A stretch of DNA of 63,874 nt, filler included, from Malassezia furfur (GCA_052055015.1; 5 parts of 5 records of this genome joined end to end with filler, not necessarily neighbours in it); one strand, 5' to 3'; counted from the first letter of the whole stretch, positions 12,673 through 61,397 are shown. Notes: generated by a model from the sequence alone, not told the origin. Program-made: numbers and translations.

Positions 12673-13780
12673 ATGCCGCTCCGACGCCTGGTCGTCGAAA
12701 ACTTTAAGAGCTACCGCGGCATCCAGGAGATCGGGCCGTTTGTCGCGTTCAGCGCAGTTAGTGCGTAGCGCATGCTGACCCAGTCGGCCCCAATGGCAGC
12801 GGCAAAAGCAACCTGATGGACGCCATTTCGTTCGTGCTCGGCGTCAAGACGGCGCAGCTGCGCTCGACGCAGCTCAAGGACCTCGTGTTCCGCGCGGCTG
12901 CGCTCGGCCCCAAGGGCGCGGGCGAGGGCGCGGCAGTCGACGACGAGGACGCGCCGGACCGCGCGTCGGTCACCGCCGTCATCGAGGACGCCAAGGGTGT
13001 CGAGCACCGCTTCCAGCGCACCATCACGCCCGCGGGCAGCTCCGAGTTCCGCTACAACGGGCGCGTAGTGAGCTACACGCTGTACAATCAGCGGCTCGAG
13101 CAGCTCAACATCCTCGTCAAGGCGCGCAACTTTCTCGTGTTCCAGGGCGACGTCGAGGCGATTGCCGCGCAGTGCTCCAAGGACCTGAGCGAGGTCGTGG
13201 ACGAGGTGAGTGGCTCGCGCGCGCTCGCATGTGAGTACGACGCGGCACGCACCGCGTACGACGCGAGCGTCGCGCACTCGTCCGCGCTCGTGACCAAGCG
13301 CAAGAACCTGCTCGCCGAAGTGCGCGCGTTCCGCCAGCAAAAGGAGGCCGCCGACCGCCTCGACGCGGTCAAGCTCGAACTGCACGCACACCTCGTGCAG
13401 CAGGTGCTGTGGCGTCTCTACCACATCCACGAGATCACCGAAATCCACACCGACTGGGTCGAGGCGCACGCCGCGCGCAACGAGCAGCTCCGCCGCCGGC
13501 ACGACGAGCGCGAGGCGCAGGTCGCCACGGCGCGCGCCGACGCGGGCCGTGTGCAGCAGGCGATCCTCGCGCAGGAGGCCGAGGAGAAGCGGCTGACGCG
13601 CGCGATCGACGCCGCGCGGCCCGAGCGCGAGAAGCTCGAAGAGCGCCTCGCCCACGCGCAGCACAAGCGCAAGCAGGCCGCGACGCTGTGTGCGCAGGCC
13701 GAGCGCGATCGCGACGCACACGACGCGACGCTCGCGCGCCTCGACGCGGACCGCGCGCTCGTCGAGCAGACCGCCGCCGA
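12673..13780 (+). CDS. SMC1: Cohesin subunit SMC1, 5' part (truncated at gap)
   Basis: MPLRRLVVENFKSYRG; a 23-nt intron at 12761-12783 restores the Walker A IGPNGSGKSNLMDAISFVLG; ARNFLVFQGDVE; coiled coil. Confidence 0.93.
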
Positions 13781-13880
13781 NNNNNNNNNNNNNNNNNNNN
13801 NNNNNNNNNNNNNNNNNNNNNNNNTTAATTAATTAANNNNNNNNNNNNNNNNNNNNNNNNNNNNNNNNNNNNNNNNNNNN
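13781..13880. other. Assembly gap/linker (N44-TTAATTAATTAA-N44)
   Basis: Fixed 100-nt spacer with an all-frame stop motif. Confidence 0.97.
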
Positions 13881-13965
13881 CGTGCGCGACGTCAAGGACC
13901 AGCTCACGGCCAAGGACGAGTCGGTGCTGCGCGCCCTGGAGCTCGCCGAGGGCCGCCGCCTGTAG
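13881..13965 (+). CDS. 3' end of an unidentified protein (partial)
   Basis: VRDVKDQLTAKDESVLRALELAEGRRL* with strong GC3 codon bias; does not resemble the SMC1 C-terminus. Confidence 0.45.
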
Positions 13966-14030
13966 TCTTTGTGCGAATAGACATGGTATGCACGCCTAGG
14001 CGGCATGCGCGCTTTCCTAGATACACTACG

Positions 14031-14762
14031 CTACGCCGACAGCAGCTTGGTCGACAGCCACGCGGTGGCGCCCAGCAGCGCGCCGACCTGCAGGAAGCGG
14101 TACGCGGGCGACATGCGCTCCGCGTCCTTTTCCTCCTGGCTCCACCGCCGCTCGCTCCACGCGCGGAAGCTGTCGGGGTTGCTGTACTGCGTGCTGCGCT
14201 GCGTGTACGCCGACTGCGCACGCGCCGCCTCGCGCCGCGTCTCGCGCTCGGCCATCTTGGCAAACAGGTTCGTCGCGTTCGGCGACGCGCGCGGCGGCGG
14301 CGACGGCCGCGCGTGCCGTCCCTCGCGCTGCGCCGTACGCTGCCGGTGCTCCCACGCATAGTTCGCGGTGGCGCGACGCCGCATGTTGTCCGACGCATCG
14401 TACATCGGCGCACCACCCGGCGGGGCAGGGCTGGCGCGGCGCCCGGCATAGCGCTGGTCGTACTCGCGCCGCGAACGGTCATTGCCGAGCGTCGCATACG
14501 CCTCGCTCACGCGCTGGAACATGCGCTTGCCCTCCTCGGACTTGCTTACGTCGGGGTGGTACTTCTTTGAGAGCTGGTAGAACTGGCTCTTGATCTGCGC
14601 CTTGGACGCCGTGTGCGGCAGACCCAGCACCTCGTACAGGTCGTCCATGCGCGCTACATGCGTCGCATGCAGCGCACGTGTCAGAGTCACGGTCACAGCC
14701 TCGCTGGGTCCCGACACGCGCCGCTGCGCCCACCGCAGCCCGGTGCTGCTCATCCGGCTCAT
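14031..14762 (-). CDS. DnaJ-domain protein, probably mitochondrial with C-terminal TM
   Basis: Arg/Ser-rich presequence-like N-terminus, DLYEVLG...KKYHPD J-domain, hydrophobic C-terminus. Confidence 0.85.
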   Translation of the reverse strand: MSRMSSTGLRWAQRRVSGPSEAVTVTLTRALHATHVARMDDLYEVLGLPHTASKAQIKSQFYQLSKKYHPDVSKSEEGKRMFQRVSEAYATLGNDRSRREYDQRYAGRRASPAPPGGAPMYDASDNMRRRATANYAWEHRQRTAQREGRHARPSPPPRASPNATNLFAKMAERETRREAARAQSAYTQRSTQYSNPDSFRAWSERRWSQEEKDAERMSPAYRFLQVGALLGATAWLSTKLLSA

Positions 14763-14841: not shown

Positions 14842-16326
14842 ATGGTCGACGCACCGCGCGCGCCACGCATCCAGAAGCTCGTGCTCGATGCCGCCCCGCT
14901 CTTGACCCAGGCCAAGATCGCGGGGCTCGCAGAGAAGTACTTTATCCCACCCACCGTGCTTGCAGAGCTGCGCGACGTCCGCGCACGCGAATACCTCGAG
15001 CATCTGCACACCACCGGCCAGATCGACCTCGAGGTGCGCGAGCCGGGCGCCGAGGCGATGCGCAAGAGTACGTCACCCTCCTCACACCCAGTGATCGACT
15101 TTGCGAAGCAGACGGGTGACTACGCGGTGCTCTCAGCGCCCGACATGCACGTGCTCGCACTGACCTATGCGCTCGAATTCGAGACGCACGGAAACTGGCG
15201 CATCCGCGACACGGTCGGCGGCAAGGTACGTCCCATGCCATTCACACAGACGGGCCAGCAGCAGCACGAGGTGCGCAAGCTCGAAGAGAAGCACATGTCC
15301 GCCGACGCGCCACCCGCCCCGGCAGCATCCGCCCCGGCTCCGGCGCCCAAGGCACGCGACACTCCTGCGCCGCCGCCGCCCCGCATCGAGACACCCAACG
15401 ACGACGCTGACGACGACGGATTTGTTACCGTCGACGCACAACACGGGTTCCAGCCGAACGCACAGCCGCCGCCGCCCCGCGAGCCGACACACGTCCACGA
15501 CGACGAGCAGGAAGAAGACGACGAGGACGTCGGCGGCGAGTGGATCACGCCGAGTAACATCACGCAGCACAAGAACAAGGCGCTCGGTCTGGTCGTCGAA
15601 GAGTCGGAGGCCATCCCGGAAAAGCCGAGTGGCCGGCGCCGCCGCGGCAAGAAGAAGGGCAGCAGCGGTGGATCGCTGTCGGTCGCCTGCATGACGGGCG
15701 ACTTTGCCGTGCAGAACGTGCTGCTCCAGATGGGTCTGCGGCTCGTGAGCGTCGATGGCGCACGCATCGAGCGCGTCAAAAGCTGGGTGCTTCGCTGCCA
15801 CGCATGCTACAAGTACGTTGCCCGTGCACACTGACCCAGAATCTGCAAGGACCCCGAGCGCAAGTTCTGCCCGTCGTGCGGCAACGCGACGCTGATCCGC
15901 ACCTCGGTGAGTACCGGCACACCAGGTCACGGCGGCGACCAGGGTCTCCAGGTGCATCTGAAGCCCAACTTTGAATACCACAACCGCGGCACGATCTATT
16001 CGCTGCCGATGCCGCGCGCAGGCAGTGCGTCCGGCGGGCGGCCGAGCGGGAGCAGCCGCAATGCCAAGACGGGCGTGCCCATCCTACGAGAAGACCAGCC
16101 CGAATGGCAGCGCGGCGTCGCCAAAGACAAGCTGCGCAAGCAGAAGGAAGAACGTGCGCTGCAGCGCTCGTTGGACCACGGCCAGGATTCGCTCTCGGCG
16201 CGCTACGCGGACCCTGACTGGCTTCCAGACCTGCTCACGGGTAAGCACACGGCCACCGGCTCTGACCTGCCGGCGCTTGGCATCGGTCGCAAGAACCCGA
16301 ACGAACGCAGACGGCGGAGAAAGTAG
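14842..16326 (+). CDS. NOB1: 20S pre-rRNA D-site endonuclease Nob1
   Basis: PIN motifs VLDA, TGDYAVLSAPD, WITPSN, TGDFAVQNVLLQMGL; Zn ribbon CHAC..CPSCGN joined by a 27-nt intron 15813-15839; probable 24-nt introns 15068-15091 and 15226-15249. Confidence 0.93.
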
Positions 16327-16334: not shown

Positions 16335-16638
16335 CTATACGCGCTCCGTGCTCCAGAAGCTATTCGTCGCAAATTCGGGCGGCGCTTCCGGATTGTGCTG
16401 GGTGAGCTGGCGTGCACACATACCGCTTGCCCGCGTGTGCTTCCCGTAATGCGGTAGTCCCGGCGCATCATCATGCGGTCCCAGTTGTCGAGGTTATGGC
16501 GCATAGGCTGTGTGAGCGCGCAAGACAAACCTTGCCATCGTTGGCCAGACGCGCGACCGCGCTGTACCCGGTACCAGTGACCGCGAACAGCACGGTAATG
16601 ATTCCCATCGGGATCACCGACAACAGGGGGACCGGCAT
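16335..16638 (-). CDS. NDUFA1: Complex I subunit NDUFA1 (MWFE/NIMM), 3 exons
   Basis: Splicing 16508-16530 (23 nt) and 16398-16423 (26 nt) gives MPVPLLSVIPMGIITVLFAVTGTG...DGKPMRHNLDNWDRMMMRRDYRITGSTRGQAHNPEAPPEFATNSFWSTERV*. Confidence 0.88.
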
Positions 16639-17118: not shown

Positions 17119-18389
17119 ATGTCCGATACAAAGACTACAGTCCCCGACTTTGAGCATGTTGAAACGGCCATGTACAAGCAGGAGCCGCCAGCGCCCGGTG
17201 AGGATTTCCGCCTCGCGATTGTCGGTGCAGGCAACATCAACTTTGGCTCCGACGAGGGGCCGTGGAACCACTCGTTCCGCCTCGAGCAGTAAGTACCTCT
17301 ATGCTGACGATCAGCAAGCTCGGCCCGCGTCTCAAGGTCACGGCTTTGATCGACCCAGCCAAGGAGCGCGCGGAGGAAGTGCTCGAGACCAAGCGTAATT
17401 CGTTCGTGGTCAGTGCGTACAAGGACACGGTGATCTATGCCGATCTTGAGGACTACCTCAAAGCGATTACACCGGAGACCCAGCCGCATGCCATCTGGGT
17501 GGGCTCGCCGCCTGCATTCCGCGGCCGTCTGGAGAAGGGACGTAACCTCGAGGTCCTCGTGGCTGATAACCTGCCGAAGACGGCCATGTTCATCGAGAAG
17601 CCTGTCTCGACCGGCCCAGTCGAGGAGGCTGCTGAGGTTGCGCATGACATCAAAAAGCGCGGAAACCTCGTTTCAGTCGGCTACATGCTTCGCTATCTTA
17701 AGGTCGTGCAAAAGATGAAGCAGATCATCGACGAGAACAACCTGGTGGTGACGGCGGTCAACGGCCGCTACGTCATGGCTTACGAGTACCTCTCCAAGTC
17801 GTGGTGGTGGAACAAAAAGCAGAGTCTTGGTCCTGTGATCGAGCAGGCGACGCATTTCTGTGACTTGGCTCGTTACTTTGGCGGCGAAGTCGACCTGAGC
17901 ACTGTGTTCGCCCACTCGCTCGAGCACAACGAGCCGGCAGGGAAGCTACACAAGCTCAACGTCGACGAGGAAGCCATCCCTCCTGAGGACCGCATCCCGC
18001 GTGTGACCAGCGCGACCTGGAAGTACGAATCAGGCGCCGTCGGGTCCCTGATGCACTGTGTTGCGCTGCACGGTCAGGACTTCTTTACGCATCTCGACGT
18101 GTTCGCAGACGGATATTACCTCCGTCTCGTCGACCCTTACCATGCACCGACCCTCTATGTTCGGCGCCCTGGAGATGACCGCGAGGAGACGTACCGTTAC
18201 CCGGAAGATGACCCCTTCTTCTCGGAGGTGTCGAACTTGGTGGACTGCATTGAGCATGGCCCCGATGCATCGCCAATCCTGTCGACCTATGAAGACGCTG
18301 TGAAGACGTACGCGTTGACCTGGGCCATCCGCCTCGCCAGTGAGAAAAAGACCGACGAGCTGGCCAAGCTTGCGAAGATCAAGATTTAA
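17119..18389 (+). CDS. Gfo/Idh/MocA-family NAD(P)-binding oxidoreductase, paralog A (no presequence)
   Basis: IVGAGNINFGSDEGPWNHS, EKP motif, VGYMLRY, EQATHFCD; 26-nt intron 17289-17314. Confidence 0.88.
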
Positions 18390-18686: not shown

Positions 18687-19165
18687 ATGTCTACCGCGAC
18701 GACGGTCGATATTGACCCTAACCTCCTTAAATCGCTCCGGGATTTCCGTCTATCCAAACGTTCTTCCAAAAATGCAGCACTAGTCGCCAAGATCGACAAG
18801 AAAAAGCTGCTTCTAGAAGAGGAAGAGCTGCTTGATCCGATTACCCCCGATGATCTGGCCGAGGAGCTTCCTGAGCATTCACCACGTTTTGTCGTGCTGA
18901 GCTACGAGCTACGCCATTCCGACGGTCGGATCTCTTATGTGCGTACAAGACCACTAACCCAATAGCCGCTGGTTCTCATCTAGTACGCGTGTGACATACT
19001 GACCTCAGCTGGGCACCCGTGTCCGCCAGCATGGAGCTGTCGACCCTGTACGCCTCGGCGTTGTCCAACTTCTCGACCCATGCGGACGTCGGCAAGGTCA
19101 TTGATATTCGTGATGGCCAGCTGTCGAATGCTGTGCTGGACGAGCGACTTGGCGCGCGCCGATAA
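18687..19165 (+). CDS. AIM7: Glia maturation factor / Aim7 (ADF-H domain)
   Basis: ELPEHSPRFVVLSY..DGRISYPLVLIYWAP..LYASA after splicing 18939-18965 (27 nt) and 18983-19008 (26 nt). Confidence 0.87.
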
Positions 19166-19170: not shown

Positions 19171-19425
19171 CTATTTTGCAAAGGTAGTCTCAGGGGGCAG
19201 GGTGTCTTTTGGGTGCTTGCTTTCAAAATGAGACGAGAGTACTTTGTAGGACTAGGTAAGAAACGGCGAGGTCGCACGCACAGGACTAGGGACTTTGCAC
19301 ACCGGGCAGACAAACTTCAGACCTTGCTCACGCGCCTTGCCTAGCTGGGACTTCCCGCCCTGCTGAGATGCGGCACGCTTTTGTGCGGCGGCCTGTGCTT
19401 GTGCCTTGGCATGCCCACGCACCAT
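19171..19425 (-). CDS. Small 4F5/C2H2 zinc-finger protein (ZNF706/At2g23090-like)
   Basis: MVRGHAKAQAQ..; CPVCK..HFESKHPK after a 30-nt intron 19252-19281. Confidence 0.82.
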
Positions 19426-19816: not shown

Positions 19817-21197
19817 ATGAGTCTTCTGGCCTCCAAGTCGCTGCGTGCTGGCCTCTCGCAGCCCCTCCGCCGTGCATGCCTCTCGACTATGGCCGCAAGG
19901 CCTAGCGTGGCACTCCGTGCACCGCCGAAGCGCTTTGCGGCCGCACGGTACTCGACGAAGCCCGACACTTCGGTCGACTTCGATCCGGAAGCGGTCACCG
20001 CGATGGACAAGCAGGAGCCTCCGGCGCCTGGTGAAGATTTCCGTGTGGCGATTGTCGGTGCCGGCAACATCAACTTCGGTTCCGATGAGGGTCCGTGGAA
20101 CCACTCGTTCCGTCTCGAGCAGTACGTGTGAACAACACTGACCGTGCAGCAAGCTGGGCCCTCGCCTGAAAGTCACCGCGCTCATTGATCCCAGTGAGGC
20201 GCGTGCTAGCAAGGTGCTCAAAACCAAGTGCGACTCGTTCGTGGTGAGCGCCTACAAGGACACGGTGATCTACCCGAACGCCGAGGCGTACATTGCGGCG
20301 CTCAAGCCCGAGGAGCGGCCGCACGCGATCTGGGTCGGCTCGCCGCCTGCGTTCCGTGGGCGTCTGGAAGCGGGCCACGATCTGGAAGAGGTGCTGGCCA
20401 AGGGCCTTCCCGGCGTCCCGCTGTTCGTCGAGAAGCCCGTGTCGACGGGCCCGGTGGACCAGGCGTTCTCGGTGGCCCACAAGCTCGAGCGGAGCAAGAC
20501 GCTCGTGTCGGTGGGCTACATGCTCCGCTACCTCAAGGTGGTGCAGAAGATGAAGCAGATCCTTGAGGAGAACAACCTGAACGTCATGGCCATCAACGCT
20601 CGCTACATCATGGCCTACGAGCACACGGCCAAGCTCGACTGGTGGGACAAGTCGCAGACGCTGGGTCCGATCGTTGAGCAGGCGACGCACTTTTGCGATC
20701 TGGCGCGCTACTTTGGTGGCGAGGCCGACCTAGGCACGGTCATGGCGCACTCGGTGGAGTACTTTGAGCCCGCGGGTAAGCTGAGCAAGATCCCGGTGGA
20801 CGAGTCGCGCGTCGCGCCTGAGAACCGCATTCCGCGTGTGACGTGTGCGACGTGGAAGTTTGACTCGGGTGCCGTTGGCTCGCTGACGCACGCTGTTGCG
20901 CTCCAGGGCCACAACTACTCGACCGAGCTTGATGTGTATGCGGATGGCCACATGCTCCGCCTGGTGGACCCGTACAACGCTCCGATCCTTTACTTCCGTC
21001 GTCCTGGTGACGACCACGAGGAGATTGTCCGCTACCAGAACGACGATCCCTTCTTCTCCGAGGTGTCCAACTTCATCGACTGCATCGAGAAGGGCCCCGG
21101 TGCCTCTCCGATCCTTTCGAGCTACGAGGACGCTGTCAAGACGTACGCGCTGACGTGGGCCATCCGTGAGGCCAGTGAGCGCAGCATCAAAAAGTAG
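19817..21197 (+). CDS. Gfo/Idh/MocA-family oxidoreductase, paralog B with mitochondrial presequence
   Basis: Arg/Ser/Leu-rich N-terminal extension; same motifs and same intron position as paralog A (28 nt, 20122-20149). Confidence 0.88.
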
Positions 21198-21273: not shown

Positions 21274-22921
21274 ATGGAACAGCGAGCGAACCGGGCGCGG
21301 AATGCGGTGCTGGCTGGCCAAGCCGCTGAGCCACATGCAGGATGGGGCGGCGTATGGAATAGCGAGAATCTGCCGCCCCTCCCGTACGACGGGCGCGACG
21401 CCACAGCGCGTAGTGCGCGTGTCTCGGACGGGCGGTCGCCGCGTGCGCCGGCGCTCGACGACGACGGGTACACGGACGTGGCGCGTGCGCCGAAGCGGCC
21501 TGTGATGGACGAGCCTGGACCATCGAAGCGTGCGCGCGATGGCGAAGCGCCACGCGCGCTGGATGCGGTGCTCGACCGCCGAGACGCGTATGCCGACGCG
21601 GCGCTCGAAGACATCCGCGAGCTGCACCCCCAGTTTGTCGGCGATGCAGATGCGGACGAGGACCACCTTGGGCTGGACGACCAGCTGTCATTGTCACTGC
21701 CGCAGCGCTACGACGCCGACGCCCACACGGGCCTTGCTGAGGCCGCGGCGGTGGCCGCTACCATGCAGGCGGACACCGACACGTCCGAATCGGTGCCGCG
21801 GCGGCTGCAGCCGCGTGGCGAGCACGCGCAGCGCAAGGTGAAGCCTGGACAAGAAAAGACGCGAGCGGCGTTTGTCGCCGCACACGCTGGGCAGACGTAC
21901 GAGCAGATGGTGCTGGAGCGTGCCTACTCGAGCGACCGGCTGTTTTGGCTCAAAGAAGCGTACGGCCTTACGTGGCGGACCGGGCGGTGGAGCCAGGAGG
22001 AGGAGGATCTGGCGACGGCTGCGCTGGACAAGTTCTGCAAGCACTACAAGCTGTCGTCTGCGGCGCTGGATGAGCTCATTTGGCACCGCAAGCCGGAGCA
22101 GAAGCACATGCACGAGGAGCTGTGGAAACACATTGCGCTGTCGGTCGGCACGCGTCCCAACTATGCGGTGCGCATGCACATCAAGTCGATGCGCAAAAAC
22201 GTCGTACGTGGCGGCAACTGGACGCCGGCCGAAGTCGATGCGCTGGCCGCGGCCGTCGCCGAGCTGGGCCACCAGTGGGAGAAGATTGGCGAGCGGCTCG
22301 GGCGGTCCGGGAACGTGTGCAAGCACTACTGGCGCGAGCAGATGCAGGGCAGCCCCGCGGCGCACGCGCCGCAGGGCGCCTTCCGCCCCGAGGAGGAGGC
22401 GGCGCTGCGGCAGGCGGTGCTGGCGTGCTGCGAAAAGGTCGGGTGCGATCCAGACGGCCCGAATCTGCCTTGGACGCTGATCCATGAGCAGCTCGGCCCT
22501 TCGACGCGCCGGATCAGTGTGCTGTCGCGCAAGTGGCGCGGCATGCTCAGCGCGGAGCGGCGCAACTCGGAGGACCAAAACACGCGCTGGTATGCGCCGC
22601 ACGACGACCATGTGCTTTTGCGCCGTGTGCGGGCGCAGCGCAAGACCAACGTGGCGGACATCGACTTTGACAAGCTGGCGTCGGACGACTGGCAGTGGCC
22701 GACGTATGTGGTGAAGAAGCACTGGACGGGCATGCTGCGCAAGCGCGTCCCGCCGCAGTTTTCGGGCAACCTGGATGGTAGGTGTTGACAAGCTCACCAC
22801 AGCGCTGCTGGACCTGCTTGAGAGCCGTGTGCCGTCGCCGGACGAGTACAAGATGCTGGCATCTGGGCGGCGGCCGCCCAAGTCGTCCGAGGACGTCCCG
22901 TACGCCGGCGGCCCGCCATAG
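21274..22921 (+). CDS. Myb/SANT repeat DNA-binding protein (Reb1/Nsi1/TTF1-like)
   Basis: GRWSQEEE, GNWTPAEVDAL..GHQWEKIGERLGRS..C, PWTLI..RKW; 25-nt intron 22778-22802. Confidence 0.75.
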
Positions 22922-22977: not shown

Positions 22978-24005
22978 CTAATAGCCCGCCGCGCCCGGCG
23001 CCGTGTCGCCCTCGCGCCGCAGCGAGAGGTAGAGCTCCTTCATGCGATTCAGGTTGCTCGAGCCCGGCTGGATCTTGGCGATGGTCTTCGACTGGCTGTT
23101 CTGCAGGTCCAGCAGCTTGGTGATCCGCGACCACGTCGTGCCTTCGGCCAGCTCCTGCTGCTTTTGCTCGCGGAAACGCGCCTCGGCCTCCCTGCGTGTG
23201 AGTGGATAGGTACGTACTTGTTCTTCCGGATGTTCTTCTCCTTCTCGGCATTGTAGTCCGCGTAGAACTGGTCGATCTCCTGCTCGGCCTTGGACGCCGC
23301 CTCGGCGCGCATGCGCTCCGCCTGGGCGTCGCGACGCGCAATCTCCTCGTCCTGCTTCGCGCGCCAGGCACGAAGCGCCTCGGTGTCCTCGTCGAGCGCG
23401 TCGTACGTGAAGGGCGTCTTTTTATCGCTCATGCCCATCGCATCGCTCTCCGGCTCGGGCGCACGCTCTGCCACGCTCGGTACCGGCACCACACCCGACT
23501 CGAGCTCGGCGGGCTCGGGGAACGACGCCTCGAAGCGCGCCTCGAGCCCAGACTCGCCGAGTGCCTCAGGCTCGCGCGCCACCTCGGTCTCGCTGAACTC
23601 GGCGAGCGAGTCGGTGCGGGACACACCGGTGCGCGAGTCGCTCTCGCCAAACTCGGCGAGCGAATCGACGCGCGTCACCGGCGGGCGCGTGTCCGGCTCG
23701 CCAAACTCGGCCAACGAGTCGGCACGGGTGAGTGCGGCGCCCGACGGCAGGCCGGTGGCCGGCAGAACGGGGTGTTCGGGCGCACCACTCAGCGCGTCCT
23801 CGAACTGGTTGTCGTCGTCGAGCGCGGGGAAGTCGTGCGCGGCCTGCTCAAAGTCGTGCTCCGGCGTTTCCTGTGCGGCACTACCGCCGAACAACGAGGC
23901 ATCGTTGCCCAGAAGCGACCCAGCGGCCTGCCGCTCGCGCTGCAAAAAGTCCGACGTGGGGTCCGCGGCGTCCGTCTCGCCCAGCTGCCCAAAGTCAAAC
24001 GCCAT
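22978..24005 (-). CDS. CLC1: Clathrin light chain
   Basis: [63 protein letters not shown] after a 26-nt intron 23192-23217. Confidence 0.9.
23591..23726 (-). repeat. 54-bp coding repeat x3 inside CLC1 (RxDSLAEFxE)
   Basis: Units at 23591, 23645 and 23699, period 54. Confidence 0.8.
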
Positions 24006-24093: not shown

Positions 24094-24590
24094 ATGTCGC
24101 AGCGGGTGGGGAATGTAAGTTGGCACGGCACTCACGCAGACATCGCTCGCGTTCTCGCGCGTGTGGCACCACGTTGATGCTCGCGAGCGCGTGCTGGGGC
24201 GCCTCGCGCGCTCCATCGCGGTCACGCTCATGGGCAAGCACAAGCCCATCTACGACCCGGCCGTGGACGCAGGCGACTACGTCGTCGTCACCAACGCGTC
24301 GCACATTGCCGTCACGGGTCGCAAGGACGAGCAGAAGCTGTACCGCCACCACACCATGTTCCCCGGCGGTCTGAAGGAAATTCCGTACAAGACTATGCTC
24401 CAAAAGAAGCCCGAGGAAATCATCCGCCGCGCCGTGTCGGGCATGCTGCCCAAGAACAAGCTGCGCGAGCGCCGGCTGGAGCGTCTCAAGATCTTCTCGG
24501 ACAGTACGCACCCCTACGAAGAAAAGTAGGTGCAGCGCCCACTGACCCAGCTTCGTGAAGCGGTACGACCTGCCCAACCGCCAGCCGTAG
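24094..24590 (+). CDS. MRPL23: Mitochondrial ribosomal protein uL13m
   Basis: WHHVDA..LGRLA..LMGKHKPIYDP..GDYVVVTN..AVSGMLPKN; 25-nt introns 24115-24139 and 24526-24550. Confidence 0.92.
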
Positions 24591-27648: not shown

Positions 27649-27748
27649 NNNNNNNNNNNNNNNNNNNNNNNNNNNNNNNNNNNNNNNNNNNNTTAATTAA
27701 TTAANNNNNNNNNNNNNNNNNNNNNNNNNNNNNNNNNNNNNNNNNNNN
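27649..27748. other. Assembly gap/linker
   Basis: N44-TTAATTAATTAA-N44. Confidence 0.97.
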
Positions 27749-42888: not shown

Positions 42889-43715
42889 CTACATAGGGAG
42901 CAGCCGATACTGCACCAACACTGCGTCAGTCGTTTCCACGTACGTTTTTCGATCGCACTGCGCAGTGCGTCATTGTCGATGCCGCGTGTGCGGCGCACCC
43001 GCTCGCCCAGCTCTTCGTGTGTCGTGGGCGGTGCCGGTGCTGGCGCATCGGCGGCGTCGGGCGCACTGGCCCGCGGTGGCGGCAACGGCGGCTCGTACGT
43101 TTCGCGTTCTGTGCAGTTAACGAGGGGGTGCCGCGTCGCATACTGCACCCATGGCCCCCGCCAGATTTCGTGAAGCACGCCGCGAAGCGTCATGCCGGCG
43201 GTGCCAGGGATGGCGCTGGCGCTCGCAAAGTTGGCGAGCGCGCCCTTGGCGTTGCGCGTCGGTGGGGGGTCTGTTACCATGACAAACGTGTACATCGAGG
43301 GGGTCTGTAGGTGCGATAGGGTATACGTGGACGTGGAAAAGTTGTAGAACTGCTCGTGCTTCCCCCCCAGCTTGCGCACGAGGTTTCGGAGAGAGTACAC
43401 GAGGCCGTAGATGAGCTTGGCCTCCTGGTCAAATGGTAGCAGTCCCGAGTCGGTCGGATCCTGCGTCACGTTGCGGCTCACGCCCGGGAGCGCGTCGCCG
43501 GCGGGCCGCAGCGCCTGGGCGCCCGCCTCGGGTTTGGTGGGGTCCGGCTGTGCGCCTACGCGCTGGAGCGTCGCACCGAGCGACGACGTGAACGATGCGG
43601 GCCCCTGCTGGTACAGGTGCGACCAGTCCTGGTGGTAGATGGCATCGCAGTGCCGATCAAAGATCCACAACGAATACACCTGCGTGAGCGGTGCCCCACG
43701 TACCTTGAGCGCCAT
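42889..43715 (-). CDS. BET5: TRAPP small subunit Bet5 (TRAPPC1, sybindin family)
   Basis: VYSLWIFDRHC, EAKLIYGLVYSLRNLVRKL, TSTYTLSHLQTPS..FVMVTDP; introns 43680-43703 and 42921-42943. Confidence 0.85.
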
Positions 43716-45708: not shown

Positions 45709-45728
45709 CCACGTGACCCTTGACGTCG

Positions 45729-52072: not shown

Positions 52073-52685
52073 ATGAGCAACAAGGTAGTGTCACTGACGT
52101 TTCGGCACATCATCGATGATGTGATCGCAAACGTCCGGCAGGACTTTGAGGACATGGGCATCGAAAAGGAGGTGCTCGAGGAGCTCCAGCGCAGCTGGGA
52201 GGCGAAGCTCGTCGCGACCCAGGTGACCGAGTTCGATGGCGCGAACGGCAGCGTGACTGGCGTGCGCCCGCCCGTGCAATACACGACGACGCCCGGGGTC
52301 GGGTCCTCGTCGGCCTCTTCCTCCGCACGCGCCACCGACGCGAAGTCGGCCAAGGCCGAGCCGAAGGAGGAGGCGGCGTCCGCGGACGGCAAGTCTGCTT
52401 CGGCCGGTGCCACGGCCGGCACCAAGCGGAAGCACGAGGACGATGAGGAGGAGGCGAGCAACGAGATCGGGTCGGACCTGGACGACTCCGAGGAGGAGGA
52501 CGCGGACGGCAACGAAGATATGATGCTGTGTCTCTACGACAAGGTGCAGCGTGTGAAAAACAAGTGGAAGTGTGTCCTGCGCGATGGCGTGGCGTCGATC
52601 GGCGGGCGCGACTACCTCTTCTCGAAGTGCAATGGGTGCGTAGGCGCCGTGCGCCCGGCTGACCCCCAGCGAGTTCGAGTGGTAG
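52073..52685 (+). CDS. TOA1: TFIIA large subunit
   Basis: MSNKVV..IIDDVI..WEAKL; IGSDLDDS; LCLYDKVQRVKNKWKC; a 34-nt intron 52636-52669 gives CNGEFEW*. Confidence 0.93.
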
Positions 52686-54448: not shown

Positions 54449-55360
54449 TCATTGCACTGGGTCAGTTCCGCGCACGTACGATAGAGCACCTGGACGTCGC
54501 TGATCGCGAACGAAAGGCCACAGTGCGGGCACTTGCGCTGCCGCGTCTGGATGCGCGCATTGACGCACGCCTCGCAGAAGGTGTGCAGGCACTTGGTGAT
54601 GATCCGGTCGCGGTAGCGTTCCTTGCACGCCGAGCACTTGAGCAGGCTGTCGAGGTACGCGAGGTGCGTGCTTTCGTCGCCCGCGCCGCGCTTGCGCACA
54701 GCACCGCCCGCATCGCGGTCGGCGACGCGGCGCTTCAGGCGGCTCACCTCCTTGTCCAGGATCGCCGCGCGCTCCTCGGCGCGCATCCGCGCGCCACGCT
54801 CCTCGTTGAGCGTGGCAAGGTGCGCCGCGCCGCTCGTCTCGGCCGCTGCCTTGCCGCGCTCGAGCTCCGCAGCGCGCCGCTTGAACACGCTCCGGTCGCG
54901 CTCCGCCTCGGCGAGCTTGGTCGCGTGGGTCTGCACGGCGCGCCGCAAAGCGCTCGTCTCCTTCTCGGCCTGCATCAGCTGCTGCTGCAGGCCCTTTTCC
55001 GTGTCGGTGTAGCGCTCGATCACCTTGCCCTGGCGCTCGCTGCTGCGCGCGAGCGTGCGCAGCTCGGCCTCGATCGCGTCCTTGGCGCGCATCGCCGCAA
55101 AGTACTTGTTGTCCGCCTTGCTCTTCTCGGTGGTGAGGCGCACAATCTTGTCCTCAAGCTTGGCAAGGTTGACCAGCTTGGCGTTCGCCTGCTTGTCAAG
55201 TGCATCGTACGCGGCACTCAGGCGGTCCACCTCGTCGTACAGCGACGAGGTCGACGCGTTCGCCGCCTCAAGCTCGGCACGCACCTGCGTCAGCGCCTGC
55301 CGCAGCGCGTCGGGCGTCGCGTCCGGCGCATCCGCCGCCGCCGCCGCCGCACGCAGCGCC
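54449..55360 (-). CDS. BRE1: E3 ubiquitin ligase Bre1, 3' part (5' lost in gap)
   Basis: EKSKADNKYFAAMR; RING CSAC..KCLHTFCEAC..RQRKCPHC; 23-nt intron 54457-54479. Confidence 0.9.
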
Positions 55361-55460
55361 NNNNNNNNNNNNNNNNNNNNNNNNNNNNNNNNNNNNNNNN
55401 NNNNTTAATTAATTAANNNNNNNNNNNNNNNNNNNNNNNNNNNNNNNNNNNNNNNNNNNN
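55361..55460. other. Assembly gap/linker
   Basis: N44-TTAATTAATTAA-N44. Confidence 0.97.
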
Positions 55461-57803: not shown

Positions 57804-58716
57804 ATGAGTGACGCCGAGCCGTTTGACGAGACCGAGGAGACGTTCGCCGAGGCCGGCGTCCCAGACGGTGAGCCCGAGTCGGGATCGCCGTCTTCGTCTG
57901 AGAAGTATGCATCCGAAGAGGAGGAAGAGGAGGAGGAGGACGAGCTGGTGGACGAGATGGAAGACGTCGAGCCGATCGAGACGAACCGCCGTTCCCGCCG
58001 GCCCCTACGCATCAAACTGTCGCGCTCCAAGCCGCCGTCCGAGTCCACACCGAACTCAACGCCCTCACGCCGCTCCGGTCGGCGCACCACACGCACAGCG
58101 CGCGCCAGGGCGAGCACGGGCATGTCGGATGCGTCCGACGAGGACGAGCTGGACGCGTCCGACGACTCGGACGAGCTCGCGTCTGAGTCAATGGACCAGC
58201 CCATGACTGCACGCCAGATTGCGCGCGCAAATCGCGAGCGCGGGATCCAGAACGAGGAGCTCGTCGAGCTGCCGATGGGTGCGTCGCACACACACTTACC
58301 CCCAGAGTCCACCAAGCGCCAGAAGCTGTCCGAGACCGAGCTTGCGCTGCGCCGCTCCGAGACGGCGCGCCGACGCCGCAACCAGAGCGAGAAGAAGCTC
58401 GAGGATGACAAGATTGAGGTACGCACGCGCCCCGCTCACCCAGACCATCAATCGTCTGCTTAAGAAACAGGCGGGCAAAGTGCGCGGCAAAGACCGCGGC
58501 GACGATACACCCGACACGCACGAGGCACGCGCGAGGCCTCGCGACAGCGGGCCGCTCCCCATGTTTCGGTACATCTCGCGCGCAGACGGCGCGCTCCTCG
58601 CCGTGCCGCCAGGGCCGCCGTTTGTGGACGACGCCGGGGCGGGCGAGGGGCTGTACGACCATGCGCTGCGCACCGCCTTTGGCCAGTCCATCGAGACATG
58701 GACGCGTGCCAAGTAG
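57804..58716 (+). CDS. IES2: INO80 complex subunit Ies2 (PAPA-1)
   Basis: MTARQ; ELALRRSETARRRRNQSEKKLEDDKIETINRLLKKQ after a 25-nt intron 58419-58443; probable 27-nt intron 58279-58305. Confidence 0.82.
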
Positions 58717-58732
58717 CTGTAGACTAGTCCTC

Positions 58733-59467
58733 CTATACACTTCCGCGCCCCAGCCCCGTCGGCAGCGCCTGCCACATTTTGCTGCCCGGGATCGGCATCA
58801 TTTCGTCGACGTAGTGCTCACAGATCATCCCCGAGTGCCGATCGAAACGGTAGCGGAACAACATCACAAAATCCTGTACTGAGCCCGAGACCCGCCCGCT
58901 CCCGCGGAAACGCAGGCGCATCATCAGCTCGTCGCGCGGCATCGGCTGCCCCGGCGGCGCATCGGCAGGCGCGACGGGGCTCACTGCGCACGGAAGCAGC
59001 GACAGCTGCTCAATCTGGATATGTGCATCGTAAAACAGCGCACGAAGTGACCACCGCAACCACTGTGCGCTCATCAAGTATACGCGGCGTCCTCGCAGCG
59101 AGAAGGCCGGCTTGAAGGGTGTGACGTTCGGCGCTGCGTTGGGCAGCGGCGGCAGTTGCGGGCCGAACCGGAAGTACATGCGCTTGTGGTAGATTTGCGC
59201 GGATCGTGCGTATGTCGTAAGTGCGTTCGAGCCCAGGTACGGCGACAGCGAGTCGTGCACCGCTTCGTCGTCGCGGTCGACCAAACCGCGCTCCATGAAT
59301 TGGGGCAGCGTCTCGCGCAGATGGCGGATCGCCGCACCGACGCGCACCTGGTACTCATGCTCCGGCACATTGTTCCAATTCAATACTGTCTGACTCGCAG
59401 AGAAGAGGCGCAGGGGCTCGCACGAGCGCGCCGCATGCACGCCACTGCGCACGAGCGACGCGCGCAT
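58733..59467 (-). CDS. Hypothetical protein, likely mitochondrial (DUF2358/C6orf136-like)
   Basis: Presequence-like N-terminus; LRETLPQF, LRGRRVY, FRYRFD..G.ICEH.VD. Confidence 0.5.
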   Translation of the reverse strand: MRASLVRSGVHAARSCEPLRLFSASQTVLNWNNVPEHEYQVRVGAAIRHLRETLPQFMERGLVDRDDEAVHDSLSPYLGSNALTTYARSAQIYHKRMYFRFGPQLPPLPNAAPNVTPFKPAFSLRGRRVYLMSAQWLRWSLRALFYDAHIQIEQLSLLPCAVSPVAPADAPPGQPMPRDELMMRLRFRGSGRVSGSVQDFVMLFRYRFDRHSGMICEHYVDEMMPIPGSKMWQALPTGLGRGSV

Positions 59468-59510
59468 CGTCGTCGCAAGTCCCGATCGACACCCCGATCT
59501 TCTTGTGACG

Positions 59511-61397
59511 ATGGCCACGGACCGGTACGCGGCGGAGCGCGCGGTGCTGGGCGACGACGCGCTCGAGCGCCTGCGGCAAGCACACATGCTCGTCGTGGGA
59601 GCCGGAGGTATTGGCAGCGAAGTGCTCAAGGATCTCGTATTGCTCGGTGTAGGGCACATTGAGATCGTACGTCCACCTCACTTACGCAGATCGACCTCGA
59701 CACAATCGACCTGTCCAACCTGAACCGGCAGTTCCTCTTCCAGAAGCAGCACATACAGAAGCCCAAGGCACAGGTGGCCAAGGCATCGGCGAGTGCGTTC
59801 AACCCAGACGTGAACATCGTGGCGCACCATGCCAACGTCCAGGGCAAGGAGTTTGACGTCGCTTTCTACCAGAGTTTTGATGTCGTCCTCAGCGCGCTAG
59901 ACAACCTTGCGACGCGCCGCTATGTGAACCGGATGTGCGTCGCTGCCGGTGTCCCACTCGTTGAGAGCGGCACCGCGGGCTTCCTGGGCCAGGTTCAGCC
60001 GATCCGCGCAGGACACACCGAGTGCTACGACTGCACGGCGCACCCGACGCCGACCACGTTCCCGGTGTGCACGATCCGCTCGACACCGTCGACGCCCATG
60101 CACTGCATTGTGTGGGCCAAAAACTGGCTGTTCCCGTACGTGTGTGCACTCACACAGGCAACTCTTTGGCGAGGACGACGAGACGGGCGACGCCGAACTC
60201 GACGAGGCCGCACGGTCCGGCGAGAATGCGCAAGAGCTCGAAAATCTGCGGCGTGAGGCGCATCAGATGCGCGCACTCCGCACCGAGCTTACTGACGCGC
60301 CGCACGAGGCCGCGTGCAAGATCTTTGCCAAGGTGTTTGATGTCGATATCCAGCGCCTCCTCAGCATGGACGACATGTGGGAGCAGCGCAGGCGGCCTAC
60401 GCCACTTACACTTGCAACTGCGCTCGAAGATACACATGCGCCCGAGCAGACCAATGTTCTCAAAGACCGCCAGACGCTGTCGCTCGCCGACACTGCGCAG
60501 CTGTTCCTCGATAGCACCGAGGCGCTCGCCAAGCGGGCCCAGTCGTCGTCGGCGCCGCTCGCGTTTGACAAGGACGACACGGATGCGCTGGCGTTTGTGA
60601 CTGCCGCGTCCAATCTGCGCGCGCATGTCTACCACATCCCGCGCAAGACGCAGTTTGAGACCAAGCAGATTGCCGGCAACATCATCCCGGCGATCGCGAC
60701 GACGAACGCCATCGTCTCGGGTCTCGCAGTAGTGCAGGCACTCCACATGCTTGCCGAACGGTGGGACGCGATGCGCATGGTGAGCATGGCGCGGCACCCG
60801 GCGCGCGCGTTTACTACCTTTCCTCCCGCGCCCCCCAACCCGGCGTGTGGTGTGTGCAACGACATGTATCTCGTGACCGATGTGCGGGTGGACGAGACGA
60901 CGCTGGGTGACGTGCTTGACGTTGTTCGCAAGCCCACATCGGAGGGTGGCCTTGCCTACGACGAGGATGCCGAGGTGTCGATCGCCGACGGTGCGCGCAT
61001 CCTGTACGACCCGGACCTCGAGGACAACCTGGGCAAGACGCTCGCGGAGCTACGCGTCAATGTCGGTACCGCGCTGTCAGTGGTTGACGAGGATGCCCAA
61101 AAAGCTACGGTGCAGCTCCTGCTGCACGACGGCGATGCCAAGGTCCCGCACGTCCGTTGGCCTGGCGGCCGCGCCGAGGAGGTCCGTGCGCGGCGCGCGG
61201 TGCCCAAACCCGCGTCGGATTCCGAGTCGGACGTGGAGGCCGTCGAGGCGCCGCTGCCGACAACCGCAGCGCCAGCACACGGCCGTAAGCGGCGGGCGTC
61301 CGATGCGGCCGTCGAGGTGCCGGCTAAGCGCAAAGTGTCCGACACCGGCGATGCACCGCAGGGCTCGTCAGAAGATGCAGCCATCGTTCTAGACTAA
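59511..61397 (+). CDS. UBA2: SUMO-activating enzyme subunit Uba2
   Basis: [55 protein letters not shown]; introns 59667-59689 (23 nt) and 60136-60157 (22 nt). Confidence 0.94.

What the first reader, a model, noticed from the sequence alone, without database searches (positions are those of the whole stretch)
12761..60157. Pervasive ultra-short (21-28 nt) spliceosomal introns with a fused branch point/3' splice site
Of 46 introns I reconstructed, 33 are 21-28 nt. Examples are SMC1 12761-12783 (23), the DDT/WSD-like gene 31541-31562 (22), POT1 32897-32918 (22), UBA2 60136-60157 (22), both BRX1 introns (23) and BRE1 (23). Many are required to restore conserved motifs or the reading frame (SMC1 Walker A, UBA2 DLDTID, ERG28, NDUFA1). 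The architecture is GTRNGT + a few nt + CTNAC + 3-6 nt ending CAG, with no polypyrimidine tract and a lariat loop of only ~16-19 nt. That is below the footprint usually thought needed for U1 and U2 to co-occupy an intron. Malassezia introns are known to be short, but this mode approaches the ciliate/nucleomorph range and implies an adapted spliceosome (inference).
Basis: partly seen in the sequence, partly recalled or inferred. Interest (0 to 1): 0.72.

Follow-up and report, generated by a model that had tools for sequence, protein, structure and literature searches.

The report
Tiny 21-28 nt introns in Malassezia
The window comes from a Malassezia furfur-group skin yeast whose genes are interrupted by real introns of mostly 21-28 bases, among the shortest in any organism, but very short introns are already on record for this genus.

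Summary
I rebuilt 44 GT-AG introns in 26 genes. The strict motif occurs 31 times against 1.96 +/- 1.33 in shuffles, and 30 of those 31 sites are introns in my models.

31 of 44 junctions have support beyond frame and motif: Pfam profile continuity, gapless homolog alignments, one PDB alignment, and orthologous DNA from five related contigs.

The architecture is as described. The 5' site is GTRNGT, mostly GTACGT. The branch site is CTNAC, with its A at intron position 16-22 in the 21-28 nt introns. The intron most often ends 5 nt after that A, always at the first AG, with no pyrimidine tract.

The organism is in the M. furfur group. Published annotations already give a mean of 30 bp for M. sympodialis, 99% RNA-seq supported, and a median of 30 bp for M. 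restricta. The joined branch/3' site is known from Yarrowia. I could not test RNA evidence or the "adapted spliceosome" idea. Verdict: a new member of a known kind, of moderate interest.

The parts
5686..5720 (-). 35-nt intron, serine carboxypeptidase (Peptidase_S10) gene
   Evidence: Motif plus frame: joins a 34-codon first exon to the 447-codon exon. No independent check.
12761..12783 (+). 23-nt intron, SMC1-like gene
   Evidence: Exon 1 matches SMC_N profile positions 2-24 and exon 2 starts at position 31, so continuity is within 1 position. If retained, a stop follows after 2 codons.
15068..15091 (+). 24-nt in-frame intron, NOB1
   Evidence: The 8 residues it would encode fall in a gap in 15 of 15 homologs.
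15226..15249 (+). 24-nt in-frame intron, NOB1 (branch motif TTCAC)
   Evidence: Clean 8-residue gap in 10 of 15 homologs; 4 are too diverged to judge; 1 (the M. brasiliensis record) keeps 8 residues there.
15813..15839 (+). 27-nt intron, NOB1 zinc ribbon
   Evidence: Zn_ribbon_NOB1 profile 1-15 in one exon and 17-72 in the next. Gapless in 13 of 15 homologs.
16508..16530 (-). 23-nt intron, NDUFA1/MWFE gene (5' site GTTTGT)
   Evidence: MWFE profile 5-33 in one exon and 35-55 from residue 2 of the next.
16398..16423 (-). 26-nt intron, NDUFA1/MWFE gene
   Evidence: Motif and frame only.
17289..17314 (+). 26-nt intron, GFO/IDH/MocA-type oxidoreductase 1
   Evidence: If retained, a stop follows after 1 codon; spliced, the frame stays open for 358 codons. 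Same position as in the paralog at 20122.
18939..18965 (+). 27-nt intron, ADF-H (Cofilin_ADF) small gene
   Evidence: Motif and frame. Followed by a 17-nt exon.
18983..19008 (+). 26-nt intron after the 17-nt micro-exon (5' site GTACGC)
   Evidence: Motif and frame only.
19252..19281 (-). 30-nt intron, small zinc-finger protein gene
   Evidence: Motif and frame. Weak zf-met2 hit in the downstream exon.
20122..20149 (+). 28-nt intron, oxidoreductase 2
   Evidence: If retained, a stop follows after 3 codons. Weak GFO_IDH_MocA hits on both sides.
22778..22802 (+). 25-nt intron, Myb-domain gene
   Evidence: Motif and frame only.
23192..23217 (-). 26-nt intron, clathrin light chain
   Evidence: Clathrin_lg_ch profile ends at 160 in one exon and resumes at 163 on residue 2 of the next.
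24115..24139 (+). 25-nt intron, Ribosomal_L13 gene
   Evidence: Motif and frame.
24526..24550 (+). 25-nt intron, Ribosomal_L13 gene
   Evidence: Motif and frame.
25689..25712 (+). 24-nt intron, second SMC-type gene
   Evidence: If retained, a stop follows after 1 codon; spliced, the frame stays open for 646 codons.
29233..29262 (+). 30-nt intron, class II aminoacyl-tRNA synthetase (tRNA-synt_2)
   Evidence: Precisely absent from the orthologous DNA of 5 of 5 related contigs.
31541..31562 (-). 22-nt intron, unnamed 530-codon gene
   Evidence: If retained, a stop follows after 15 codons. L001 has a 22-nt GT..CTTAC..CAG intron at the same place; the other four loci are not alignable.
32534..32559 (-). 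26-nt intron, same gene, after a 16-nt first coding exon
   Evidence: Introns of 23 nt (L001) and 39 nt (L002) at the same place.
32897..32918 (+). 22-nt intron, POT1
   Evidence: tblastn of the spliced N-terminus gives one in-frame alignment across the junction in L001, L002, L003 and L004; the output was cut before any L005 row.
35664..35684 (-). 21-nt in-frame intron, ERG28 (the shortest found)
   Evidence: Clean 7-column gap in 18 of 21 homologs. The same site holds 23 nt in L001 and 30 nt in L002, and is absent in L003-L005.
35804..35827 (-). 24-nt intron, ERG28
   Evidence: Erg28 profile reaches 65 at residue 71 of 72 in one exon and resumes at 69 on residue 2 of the next. 23 nt in L001, absent in L002-L005.
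36048..36070 (-). 23-nt intron after a 10-nt first coding exon, ERG28
   Evidence: L003-L005 read straight through with the same first residues; this is my reading by eye of the rows.
37402..37424 (-). 23-nt intron, BRX1
   Evidence: Gapless in 17 of 18 homologs. 25 nt in L001, 64 nt in L002, precisely absent in L003-L005.
37493..37515 (-). 23-nt intron, BRX1
   Evidence: Gapless in 15 of 18 homologs. 24 nt in L001, 42 nt in L002, precisely absent in L003-L005.
38075..38108 (+). 34-nt intron, small unnamed gene
   Evidence: Orthologous introns of 26, 30, 27, 27 and 27 nt in L001-L005.
38141..38180 (+). 40-nt intron, same gene
   Evidence: Orthologous introns of 25, 42, 27, 27 and 27 nt in L001-L005.
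38879..38917 (-). 39-nt intron, RPS23
   Evidence: Ribosom_S12_S23 profile ends at 62 in one exon and resumes at 64 in the next. Absent in 5 of 5 relatives.
39138..39177 (-). 40-nt intron, RPS23
   Evidence: Absent in 5 of 5 relatives, with the exons abutting.
39431..39473 (+). 43-nt intron, RPL27
   Evidence: Absent in the 4 of 4 relatives covered by the extraction.
39488..39534 (+). 47-nt intron, RPL27, after a 14-nt micro-exon
   Evidence: Orthologous introns of 41, 53, 73 and 73 nt.
39569..39684 (+). 116-nt intron, RPL27 (the longest found)
   Evidence: Orthologous introns of 60, 137, 98 and 98 nt.
40024..40062 (+). 39-nt intron before the last codon of RPL27
   Evidence: L002-L005 read the last codon and the stop directly.
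42921..42943 (-). 23-nt intron, sybindin-family gene
   Evidence: Absent in L001 and L003-L005; 63 nt in L002.
43680..43703 (-). 24-nt intron after a 12-nt first coding exon, sybindin-family gene
   Evidence: 24-nt intron in L001 at the same place. L003-L005 show a GTAGGT..CTCAC..CAG stretch there, read by eye.
45368..45393 (+). 26-nt intron, EMP70/TM9SF gene
   Evidence: EMP70 profile reaches 462 at residue 535 of 537 in one exon and resumes at 465 in the next. Absent in 5 of 5 relatives.
45514..45537 (+). 24-nt in-frame intron, EMP70/TM9SF gene
   Evidence: Absent in 5 of 5 relatives.
52636..52669 (+). 34-nt intron near the end of the TFIIA large-subunit gene
   Evidence: Motif and frame only.
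54457..54479 (-). 23-nt intron two codons before the BRE1 stop
   Evidence: The last full codon before it aligns to residue 973 of the 975-residue human BRE1A chain. The spliced reading adds 2 residues and a stop; the retained reading runs on for hundreds of codons.
58279..58305 (+). 27-nt in-frame intron, PAPA-1 (Ies2-like) gene
   Evidence: Motif only; it is in frame and has no stop.
58419..58443 (+). 25-nt intron, PAPA-1 gene (5' site GTACGC)
   Evidence: PAPA-1 profile 1-27 in one exon and 28-82 in the next.
59667..59689 (+). 23-nt intron, UBA2
   Evidence: ThiF profile ends at 49 in one exon and resumes at 50 in the next. Gapless in 10 of 12 homologs.
60136..60157 (+). 22-nt intron, UBA2
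   Evidence: Gapless in 11 of 12 homologs.

Best explanation
These are ordinary U2-type (GT-AG) spliceosomal introns of a Malassezia furfur-group yeast, shrunk to near the smallest workable size.

Each one is little more than the three signals:
- a 5' splice site hexamer (GTRNGT, mostly GTACGT);
- a spacer of 6-12 nt (15 nt in the two 30-nt introns);
- a CTNAC branch site;
- 1-4 further bases before the closing AG, which is always the first AG after the branch A.

Inferred mechanism:
- The intron is recognised as one unit (intron definition).
- The 5' site pairs with U1 and then U6. The branch site is read by the branch-binding protein and U2.
- The 3' site is chosen by proximity to the branch point, without a pyrimidine tract, as in Yarrowia.
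- The lariat loop is only 16-22 nt in the 21-28 nt class.

Shown here: the sequence signals, their excess over chance, and exon junctions that match homologous proteins and intron-less orthologous DNA.

Not shown here: excision in RNA, the branch nucleotide actually used, and the factors involved.
For: - Motif excess: 31 sites against 1.96 +/- 1.33 in shuffles. 30 of the 31 lie in sense orientation inside gene models.
- 25 of the 26 spliced models gave in-frame, stop-free coding sequences. The 26th, BRE1, was set one base wrong there. I re-read it from the sequence and checked it against the PDB.
- Pfam profile positions run on across 8 junctions without a break, and within 1 position for SMC1.
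- Homolog alignments are gapless at the junctions of UBA2 (10 of 12 and 11 of 12), NOB1, ERG28 and BRX1 (15 of 18 and 17 of 18).
- In five syntenic related contigs, each of the 21 introns of that block has at least one informative relative that agrees with the junction. The relative either lacks the intron precisely or carries an intron of another length at the same place, for example 21/23/30 nt and 23/25/64 nt. None contradicts a junction.
- In all, 31 of 44 junctions have support beyond frame and motif.
- Published RNA-seq-backed annotations of sister species report the same scale (PMC5389616; PMC9241646).
Against: - No RNA evidence was obtainable for this genome.
- 13 of 44 introns rest on motif and reading frame only.
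- 7 of the 14 introns whose length is a multiple of three have no in-frame stop. Their retention would give an in-frame insertion, and sequence alone cannot exclude it as a minor isoform.
- Public protein records of M. furfur, M. caprae, M. brasiliensis and M. psittaci disagree with my junctions at UBA2, NOB1 and BRX1. Each disagreeing record stands alone against the other homologs.
- Branch points are inferred from the motif, not mapped.
Confidence: 0.93

Rival explanations
1. One reading: the introns are real, but they can only be spliced because the Malassezia spliceosome is specially adapted, for example through changed snRNAs or lost or altered 3'-site factors.
For: - Only 6-12 nt lie between the 5' site hexamer and the branch motif in introns of 21-28 nt, and the branch A is 4-8 nt from the intron end in these. 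Both are tight by the standards of budding yeast and human, which I recall rather than cite.
- The dominant 5' site GTACGT (20 of 44) departs at position +4 from the usual GTAAGT/GTATGT.
- In Yarrowia the unusual 5' consensus is matched by its U1 RNAs (PMC2911113 passage).
Against: - Nothing here bears on the machinery: no genome is held and no snRNA was found in the window or the related loci.
- Lineages with equal or shorter introns are reported to keep canonical 3'-site factors and a functional spliceosome (PMC13644364 passage).
- All three cis signals are canonical in sequence.
Confidence: 0.3
2. The in-frame, stop-free segments (lengths that are multiples of three) are coding insertions, or are facultatively retained, rather than constitutive introns.
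For: - 7 such segments exist.
- Some public records translate the orthologous segment, namely M. caprae UBA2, M. brasiliensis NOB1 and M. psittaci BRX1.
- Multiples of three are not depleted (14 of 44).
Against: - The segments carry full 5' site, branch and CAG signals.
- They fall in gaps of the homologs: 15 of 15 and 10 of 15 for NOB1, and 18 of 21 for ERG28.
- EMP70 45514-45537 is absent in 5 of 5 relatives. ERG28 35664-35684 is 21, 23 or 30 nt or absent among relatives, a pattern that a coding segment would not show.
- PAPA-1 58279-58305 has no such check.
Confidence: 0.08
3. Artefact: chance motifs, assembly frameshifts or decaying pseudogenes.
For: The window is a chain of short contigs from a fragmented assembly.
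Against: - The motif is about 16-fold above the shuffles.
- The same junctions are seen in independent related contigs and in homologs from many fungi.
- Every interruption has the same signals, which sequencing errors would not produce.
Confidence: 0.01

Closest known systems
Annotated introns of Malassezia sympodialis and M. restricta
   Same: Same genus and the same scale. The curated M. sympodialis set has 5350 introns with a mean of 30 bp, 99% RNA-seq supported (PMC5389616 Table 2). M. restricta has a mean of 37.2 and a median of 30.0 bp, annotated with minimum intron settings of 20 and 15 (PMC9241646; PMC6473144). A review says the genus has 'very short introns' (PMC7426719).
   Different: This window's median is 25.5 nt, with 32 of 44 introns at 21-28 nt, somewhat shorter than those published figures. 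In the passages I read, those papers give no splice-signal anatomy. I did not see Supplementary Figure S8 of PMC5389616 (intron sizes).
Yarrowia lipolytica combined branch point/3' splice site
   Same: No pyrimidine tract and a branch motif anchored next to the AG: CTAAC plus about one base before the 3' site motif (PMC2911113 passage), or 2 nt (AC) between the branch motif and AG (PMC2483917 passage). That puts the intron end 5 nt after the branch A, which is the commonest spacing here (23 of 44).
   Different: Yarrowia introns are long; its table row in PMC2483917 reads 204 and 268.75, apparently median and mean, though I did not see the column heads. Its branch motif is nearly always CTAAC, whereas here position 3 varies: G 16, C 15 (plus one TTCAC), A 7 and T 5.
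Giardia and Trichomonas fused ACTAACACACAG-type 3' ends
   Same: The branch point lies at a fixed short distance from the AG, with no pyrimidine tract (PMC2483917 passage).
   Different: The spacing there is 4 nt (ACAC), those genomes hold very few introns, and the introns are longer.
Tiny-intron lineages: ciliates (Paramecium about 25 nt, Stentor 15-16 nt), myxozoans (median 22 bp), dicyemids, microsporidia
   Same: The median intron is below 30 nt and the introns are GT-AG (PMC13644364 passages; abstracts of PMC5014332 and 10.1101/2021.08.05.455221 in the listings).
   Different: Those are protists or parasitic animals, and from recall many are AT-rich. This is a free-growing, GC-rich (62%) basidiomycete yeast with a sharply defined yeast-like branch motif. 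PMC13644364 does not mention Malassezia (0 occurrences).
Ustilago maydis, same subphylum
   Same: A CTGAC-type branch motif is the commonest there too (PMC2483917 table row).
   Different: Its row reads 95 and 126.88 for what appear to be median and mean length, and only 11.6% of introns carry the top hexamer. Intron shrinkage and signal sharpening are therefore features of Malassezia, not of the whole subphylum.

Membership tests
U2-type (major, GT-AG) spliceosomal introns | GT at the 5' end and AG at the 3' end | tested here: met
   44 of 44.
U2-type (major, GT-AG) spliceosomal introns | Extended 5' splice site consensus (GTRNGT class) | tested here: met
   41 of 44 are GTRNGT; 2 are GTACGC and 1 is GTTTGT.
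U2-type (major, GT-AG) spliceosomal introns | Branch motif of the CTRAY/CTNAY class with an adenosine upstream of the 3' site | tested here: met
   CTNAC in 43 of 44 and TTCAC in 1. The A lies 4-10 nt from the intron end. This is a motif match only; the branch was not mapped.
U2-type (major, GT-AG) spliceosomal introns | Removal gives the conserved protein | tested here: met
   31 of 44 junctions are supported by Pfam continuity, homolog alignments, PDB or orthologous DNA. The other 13 rest on frame and motif only.
U2-type (major, GT-AG) spliceosomal introns | Excision from RNA through a lariat | not testable with these tools
U12-type (minor) introns | 5' site of the [AG]TATCCTT type (consensus recalled) | tested here: not met
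   None of the 44 5' sites has it.
Ultra-short-intron genomes (typical intron below 30 nt) | Median or mode of intron length below 30 nt | tested here: met
   Median 25.5 nt, with 34 of 44 at most 30 nt. This covers one 64-kb window of five contigs only, not the genome.
Anchored branch point/3' splice site architecture (Yarrowia type) | Narrow, short branch-to-AG distance | tested here: met
   The intron ends 5 nt after the A in 23 of 44 and 4-8 nt after it in 41 of 44. The 3' site is the first AG after the A in 44 of 44.
Anchored branch point/3' splice site architecture (Yarrowia type) | No pyrimidine tract at the 3' end | tested here: met
   Only 1-7 nt lie between the CTNAC motif and the AG. 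Introns of at most 30 nt are 51% pyrimidine overall.
Genomes that purge stop-free introns whose length is a multiple of three (Paramecium/Yarrowia pattern) | [quoted passage not shown] | tested here: inconclusive
   14 of 44 are multiples of three, and 7 of those 14 are stop-free. No deficit is visible, but the sample is too small to decide.

The most novel reading that the evidence does not exclude
The M. furfur lineage splices at or near the physical minimum for a canonical spliceosome: a spacer as short as 6 nt between the 5' site hexamer and the branch motif, and a branch A as little as 4 nt from the 3' end.

This could go with co-evolved machinery. One candidate is a U1 5' end with a single base change that pairs perfectly with the palindromic GUACGU. 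Another is 3' site selection that needs no U2AF-type pyrimidine reading.

Shrinkage would also be lineage-specific and recent within the genus. In the syntenic block, the window and the 66%-GC relative L001 have 21-26 nt where the 53%-GC relative L002 has 30-64 nt and the 59-60%-GC relatives have lost the intron.

That would make a transformable yeast a bench model for the lower size limit of introns.
Probability: 0.3. Interest if true: 0.7.

Novelty: new member of a known kind. Interest (0 to 1): 0.45.

Why it matters
- Gene finding. Public protein records of this very species are wrong at these introns. One M. furfur UBA2 record lacks the whole 148-149-residue middle exon, and the M. furfur BRX1 record reads a 22-residue exon out of frame. 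That M. furfur annotation was made with Augustus trained on another species' proteome, and the methods passage shown mentions no RNA data (PMC9040865 passage). Any proteome-based work on M. furfur-group yeasts inherits such errors unless the minimum intron size is set to about 15-20 nt.
- Splicing biology. A recent paper listing lineages with introns below 30 bp does not mention Malassezia (PMC13644364). Yet this is a culturable yeast with Agrobacterium and CRISPR tools (title of 10.1101/638429) and very clean signals. It could be used to measure how short the 5' site-to-branch and branch-to-3' site spacers can be.
- Evolution. Precise intron losses and length changes between close relatives give a compact data set on intron turnover.

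Tried and rejected
- Whole genome: none is held. Genome-wide intron statistics, snRNA genes and the splicing-factor inventory could therefore not be done.
I did not try read laying.
- Longest-ORF walking with loose intron candidates over-spliced and fused neighbouring genes. I dropped it in favour of hand-curated models.
- A first codon model was contaminated by antisense ORFs. I replaced it with one trained on Pfam-supported ORFs.
- Candidates rejected as introns:
  - 42850-42896 (+), which lies beyond the MVD stop;
  - 52812-52843 (+), which would fuse TFIIA to the next gene;
  - 45518-45537 (20 nt), which gives a frame that destroys the EMP70 C-terminus;
  - 13224-13252 (-), antisense to SMC1.
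- Rfam scans of the window and of L001-L005 found no family at gathering score. So no snRNA was available for testing the U1 idea, and no snoRNA was found in the 116-nt RPL27 intron.
- The search of earlier findings returned nothing.
- Literature on Malassezia splice signals:
  - In one search, none of the 20 listed papers (of 25 hits) that use tiny-intron terms mentions Malassezia.
  - In one search, 12 papers hold Malassezia, introns and splice site. I read passages of three (PMC3560662, PMC5389616, PMC8476143) and none describes the branch/3' site arrangement.
  - Searches were swamped by papers unrelated to Malassezia.
  - I did not open the supplements of these papers; they may hold intron length histograms or logos.

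Full report
**What is at the stated coordinates.** The four sites I read first carry the described signals. SMC1 12761-12783 is a 23-nt GTGCGT...CTGAC-CCAG stretch. Removing it links a 29-codon first exon to the exon that begins with the Walker A loop. The sites 31541-31562 (minus strand), 32897-32918 and 60136-60157 are 22-nt stretches of the same build.

A pattern scan of both strands lists dozens more. The strict form, GT[AG]NGT, 5-20 nt, CTNAC, 1-6 nt, AG, at most 30 nt in total, has 31 distinct sites. One hundred dinucleotide-preserving shuffles gave 1.96 +/- 1.33, with a maximum of 8. 30 of the 31 are introns of my gene models. The one left over lies antisense to SMC1.

**Gene models.** Pfam on 115 long ORFs fixed which strand is coding in this 62%-GC sequence, where antisense ORFs are long. 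With hand-set exon coordinates, 25 of 26 genes gave in-frame, stop-free coding sequences that end in a stop codon or at a contig end. The BRE1 model was set one base wrong there. I re-read it from the sequence. NOB1 gained two more introns.

The final list has 44 introns:
- Lengths: 21 (1), 22 (3), 23 (8), 24 (6), 25 (4), 26 (6), 27 (3), 28 (1), 30 (2), 34 (2), 35, 39 (2), 40 (2), 43, 47 and 116.
- 32 of 44 are 21-28 nt and the median is 25.5.
- My list probably misses UTR introns and introns with weak signals.

**Independent checks of the junctions.**

- Pfam, exon by exon. Profile positions run on from one exon to the next at NOB1 15813, NDUFA1 16508, clathrin light chain 23192, ERG28 35804, RPS23 38879, EMP70 45368, PAPA-1 58419 and UBA2 59667. 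They run on within one position at SMC1. BRX1 and oxidoreductase 2 were only roughly continuous.
- Homolog alignments:
  - UBA2: gapless in 10 of 12 homologs at junction 1 and 11 of 12 at junction 2.
  - NOB1: the two in-frame 24-nt segments fall in gaps in 15 of 15 and 10 of 15 homologs. For the second, 4 homologs are too diverged to judge and 1 record keeps 8 residues. The 27-nt junction is gapless in 13 of 15.
  - ERG28: the 7 residues of the 21-nt segment fall in a clean gap in 18 of 21 homologs. I picked those 21 from the 150 listed.
  - BRX1: gapless in 15 of 18 and 17 of 18.
- BRE1 against solved structures. The last full codon before the intron aligns to residue 973 of the 975-residue human BRE1A chain. 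The spliced reading adds two residues and a stop. The retained reading runs on for hundreds of codons, antisense to the next gene.
- Orthologous DNA. A scan of metagenome contigs with a BRX1 alignment gave five long related contigs, L001-L005. Their BRX1 is 75-77% identical and their GC is 53-66%. They are syntenic with window 29-46 kb. For each of the 21 window introns in that block, at least one relative agrees with the junction and none contradicts it:
  - Precisely absent in 5 of 5: the tRNA synthetase intron, both RPS23 introns and both EMP70 introns.
  - Absent in L003-L005, but 24/42 and 25/64 nt in L001/L002: the two BRX1 introns.
  - The 21-nt ERG28 intron is 23 nt in L001, 30 nt in L002 and absent in L003-L005.
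  - Both introns of the small gene at 38 kb are present in all five relatives, at 25-42 nt.
  - The POT1 DNA alignment was uninformative. tblastn, however, gives one in-frame alignment across the junction in the four relatives shown.

  Exact loss, and length changes that are not multiples of three with the GT...CTNAC...AG signals kept, are what introns show and coding sequence does not.

In all, 31 of 44 junctions have support beyond frame and motif; 13 have only those.

**Anatomy.**
- 5' site: GTACGT 20, GTATGT 6, GTAGGT 6, GTGCGT 5, GTAAGT 2, GTACGC 2, and one each of GTTTGT, GTGAGT and GTGTGT.
- Branch motif: CTGAC 16, CTCAC 15, CTAAC 7, CTTAC 5, TTCAC 1.
- Distance from the branch A to the intron end: 4 (1), 5 (23), 6 (4), 7 (7), 8 (6), 9 (1), 10 (2).
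- The 3' site is the first AG after the A in 44 of 44, and the last triplet is CAG in 42 of 44.
- In introns of at most 30 nt the A sits at position 16-25 (median 19), and 6-15 nt (mode 9) separate the 5' hexamer from the branch pentamer.
- There is no room for a pyrimidine tract, and short introns are 51% pyrimidine.
- Lengths that are multiples of three are not depleted (14 of 44), and 7 of those have no in-frame stop.

**Organism and what is known.** The best named matches are M. furfur (UBA2 exon 95%, BRX1 exon 100%) and M. brasiliensis (NOB1 88%).

Already on record for the genus:
- The curated M. sympodialis annotation has 5350 introns with a mean of 30 bp, 5271 of them RNA-seq supported (PMC5389616, Table 2 in the passages).
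- M. restricta has a mean of 37.2 and a median of 30.0 bp (PMC9241646 Table 1). It was annotated with minimum intron sizes of 20 and 15 (PMC6473144).
- A review states that the genus has very short introns (PMC7426719).

Pervasive tiny introns in Malassezia are therefore on record, as annotation statistics.

The joined branch/3' site is on record for Yarrowia, Giardia and Trichomonas (PMC2483917 and PMC2911113 passages). The Yarrowia spacing equals the commonest one here.

What I did not find in print is a description of Malassezia splice signals, or Malassezia being counted among tiny-intron lineages (searches; I read passages of three of the 12 papers). PMC13644364, a 2026 paper on introns below 30 bp, has no occurrence of the name. 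I did not open supplements, including the intron size figure of PMC5389616.

**Mechanism.** The best-supported reading is canonical U2-type splicing by intron definition, with the 3' site taken as the first AG a few bases after the branch. The sequence signals and junctions are shown. RNA excision, the branch nucleotide and the factors involved are inferred.

Other tiny-intron lineages are reported to keep standard factors. One concrete lead: the dominant 5' site GTACGT is a palindrome, and one base change in the recalled U1 5' end would pair with it perfectly. Yarrowia sets a precedent for a 5' site consensus matched by its U1.

**Verdict.** Their shortness is already known for the genus, and the 3' architecture is a known kind not yet described for this genus in the papers I could search. 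Practical value lies in correcting M. furfur gene models and in a possible yeast model for minimal introns.

Noticed in passing
window 13781-13880, 27649-27748, 41509-41608, 55361-55460: Each N run is 44 N + TTAATTAATTAA + 44 N, a six-frame-stop linker. The window is therefore a chain of contigs of 13780, 13768, 13760, 13752 and at least 8414 nt, in descending size, and not one contiguous locus. SMC1, the second SMC-type gene, MVD, BRE1 and a DEAH helicase are cut at the linkers.
   Followed up: partly
window 40174-41508 and 41611-42876: The diphosphomevalonate decarboxylase gene appears on both sides of the third linker, 92% identical over 1254 nt. Synteny with L001-L005 runs on across the linker. 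This fits two diverged haplotypes of a hybrid M. furfur strain, whose parental lineages are about 10% apart (PMC9040865 passage). It does not look like a tandem duplication.
   Followed up: partly
proteins P0002, P0391, P0014, P0123, P0397: Public records mishandle these introns. One M. furfur UBA2 record jumps from the first 5' site to the second 3' site and loses the whole middle exon. The M. furfur BRX1 record reads the 22-residue exon out of frame. The M. caprae UBA2, M. brasiliensis NOB1 and M. psittaci BRX1 records keep an intron as extra residues.
   Followed up: yes
window 39474-39487 and 18966-18982; also 36071-36080, 43704-43715, 32560-32575: There are micro-exons of 14 nt (RPL27) and 17 nt (ADF-H gene) between two short introns, and first coding exons of 10, 12 and 16 nt.
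   Followed up: partly
window 38733-40068 (RPS23, RPL27): The two cytosolic ribosomal protein genes hold all six introns of 39-116 nt. The other 38 introns have a median of 25 nt and a maximum of 40 (one-sided Mann-Whitney p = 7e-5). Both RPS23 introns and one RPL27 intron are missing from all related contigs that cover them.
   Followed up: partly
L001-L005 against window 29000-46000: Intron length tracks lineage in the syntenic block. The 66%-GC contig L001 has 22-26 nt introns like the window. The 53%-GC contig L002 has 30-64 nt at the same sites. The 59-60%-GC contigs L003-L005 have lost many of them or hold 27 nt.
   Followed up: partly
window 17119-18389 and 19817-21197: Two paralogous oxidoreductase genes (GFO_IDH_MocA plus ox_reductase_C) lie 1.4 kb apart and share their intron position. 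Two serine carboxypeptidase genes lie at 308-1816 and 4340-5823.
   Followed up: no
window 55463-57676 (+): A DEAH-box helicase with HA2 and OB_NTP_bind domains, the family that includes the spliceosomal helicases, is cut at its 5' end by a linker. I did not determine which member it is.
   Followed up: no
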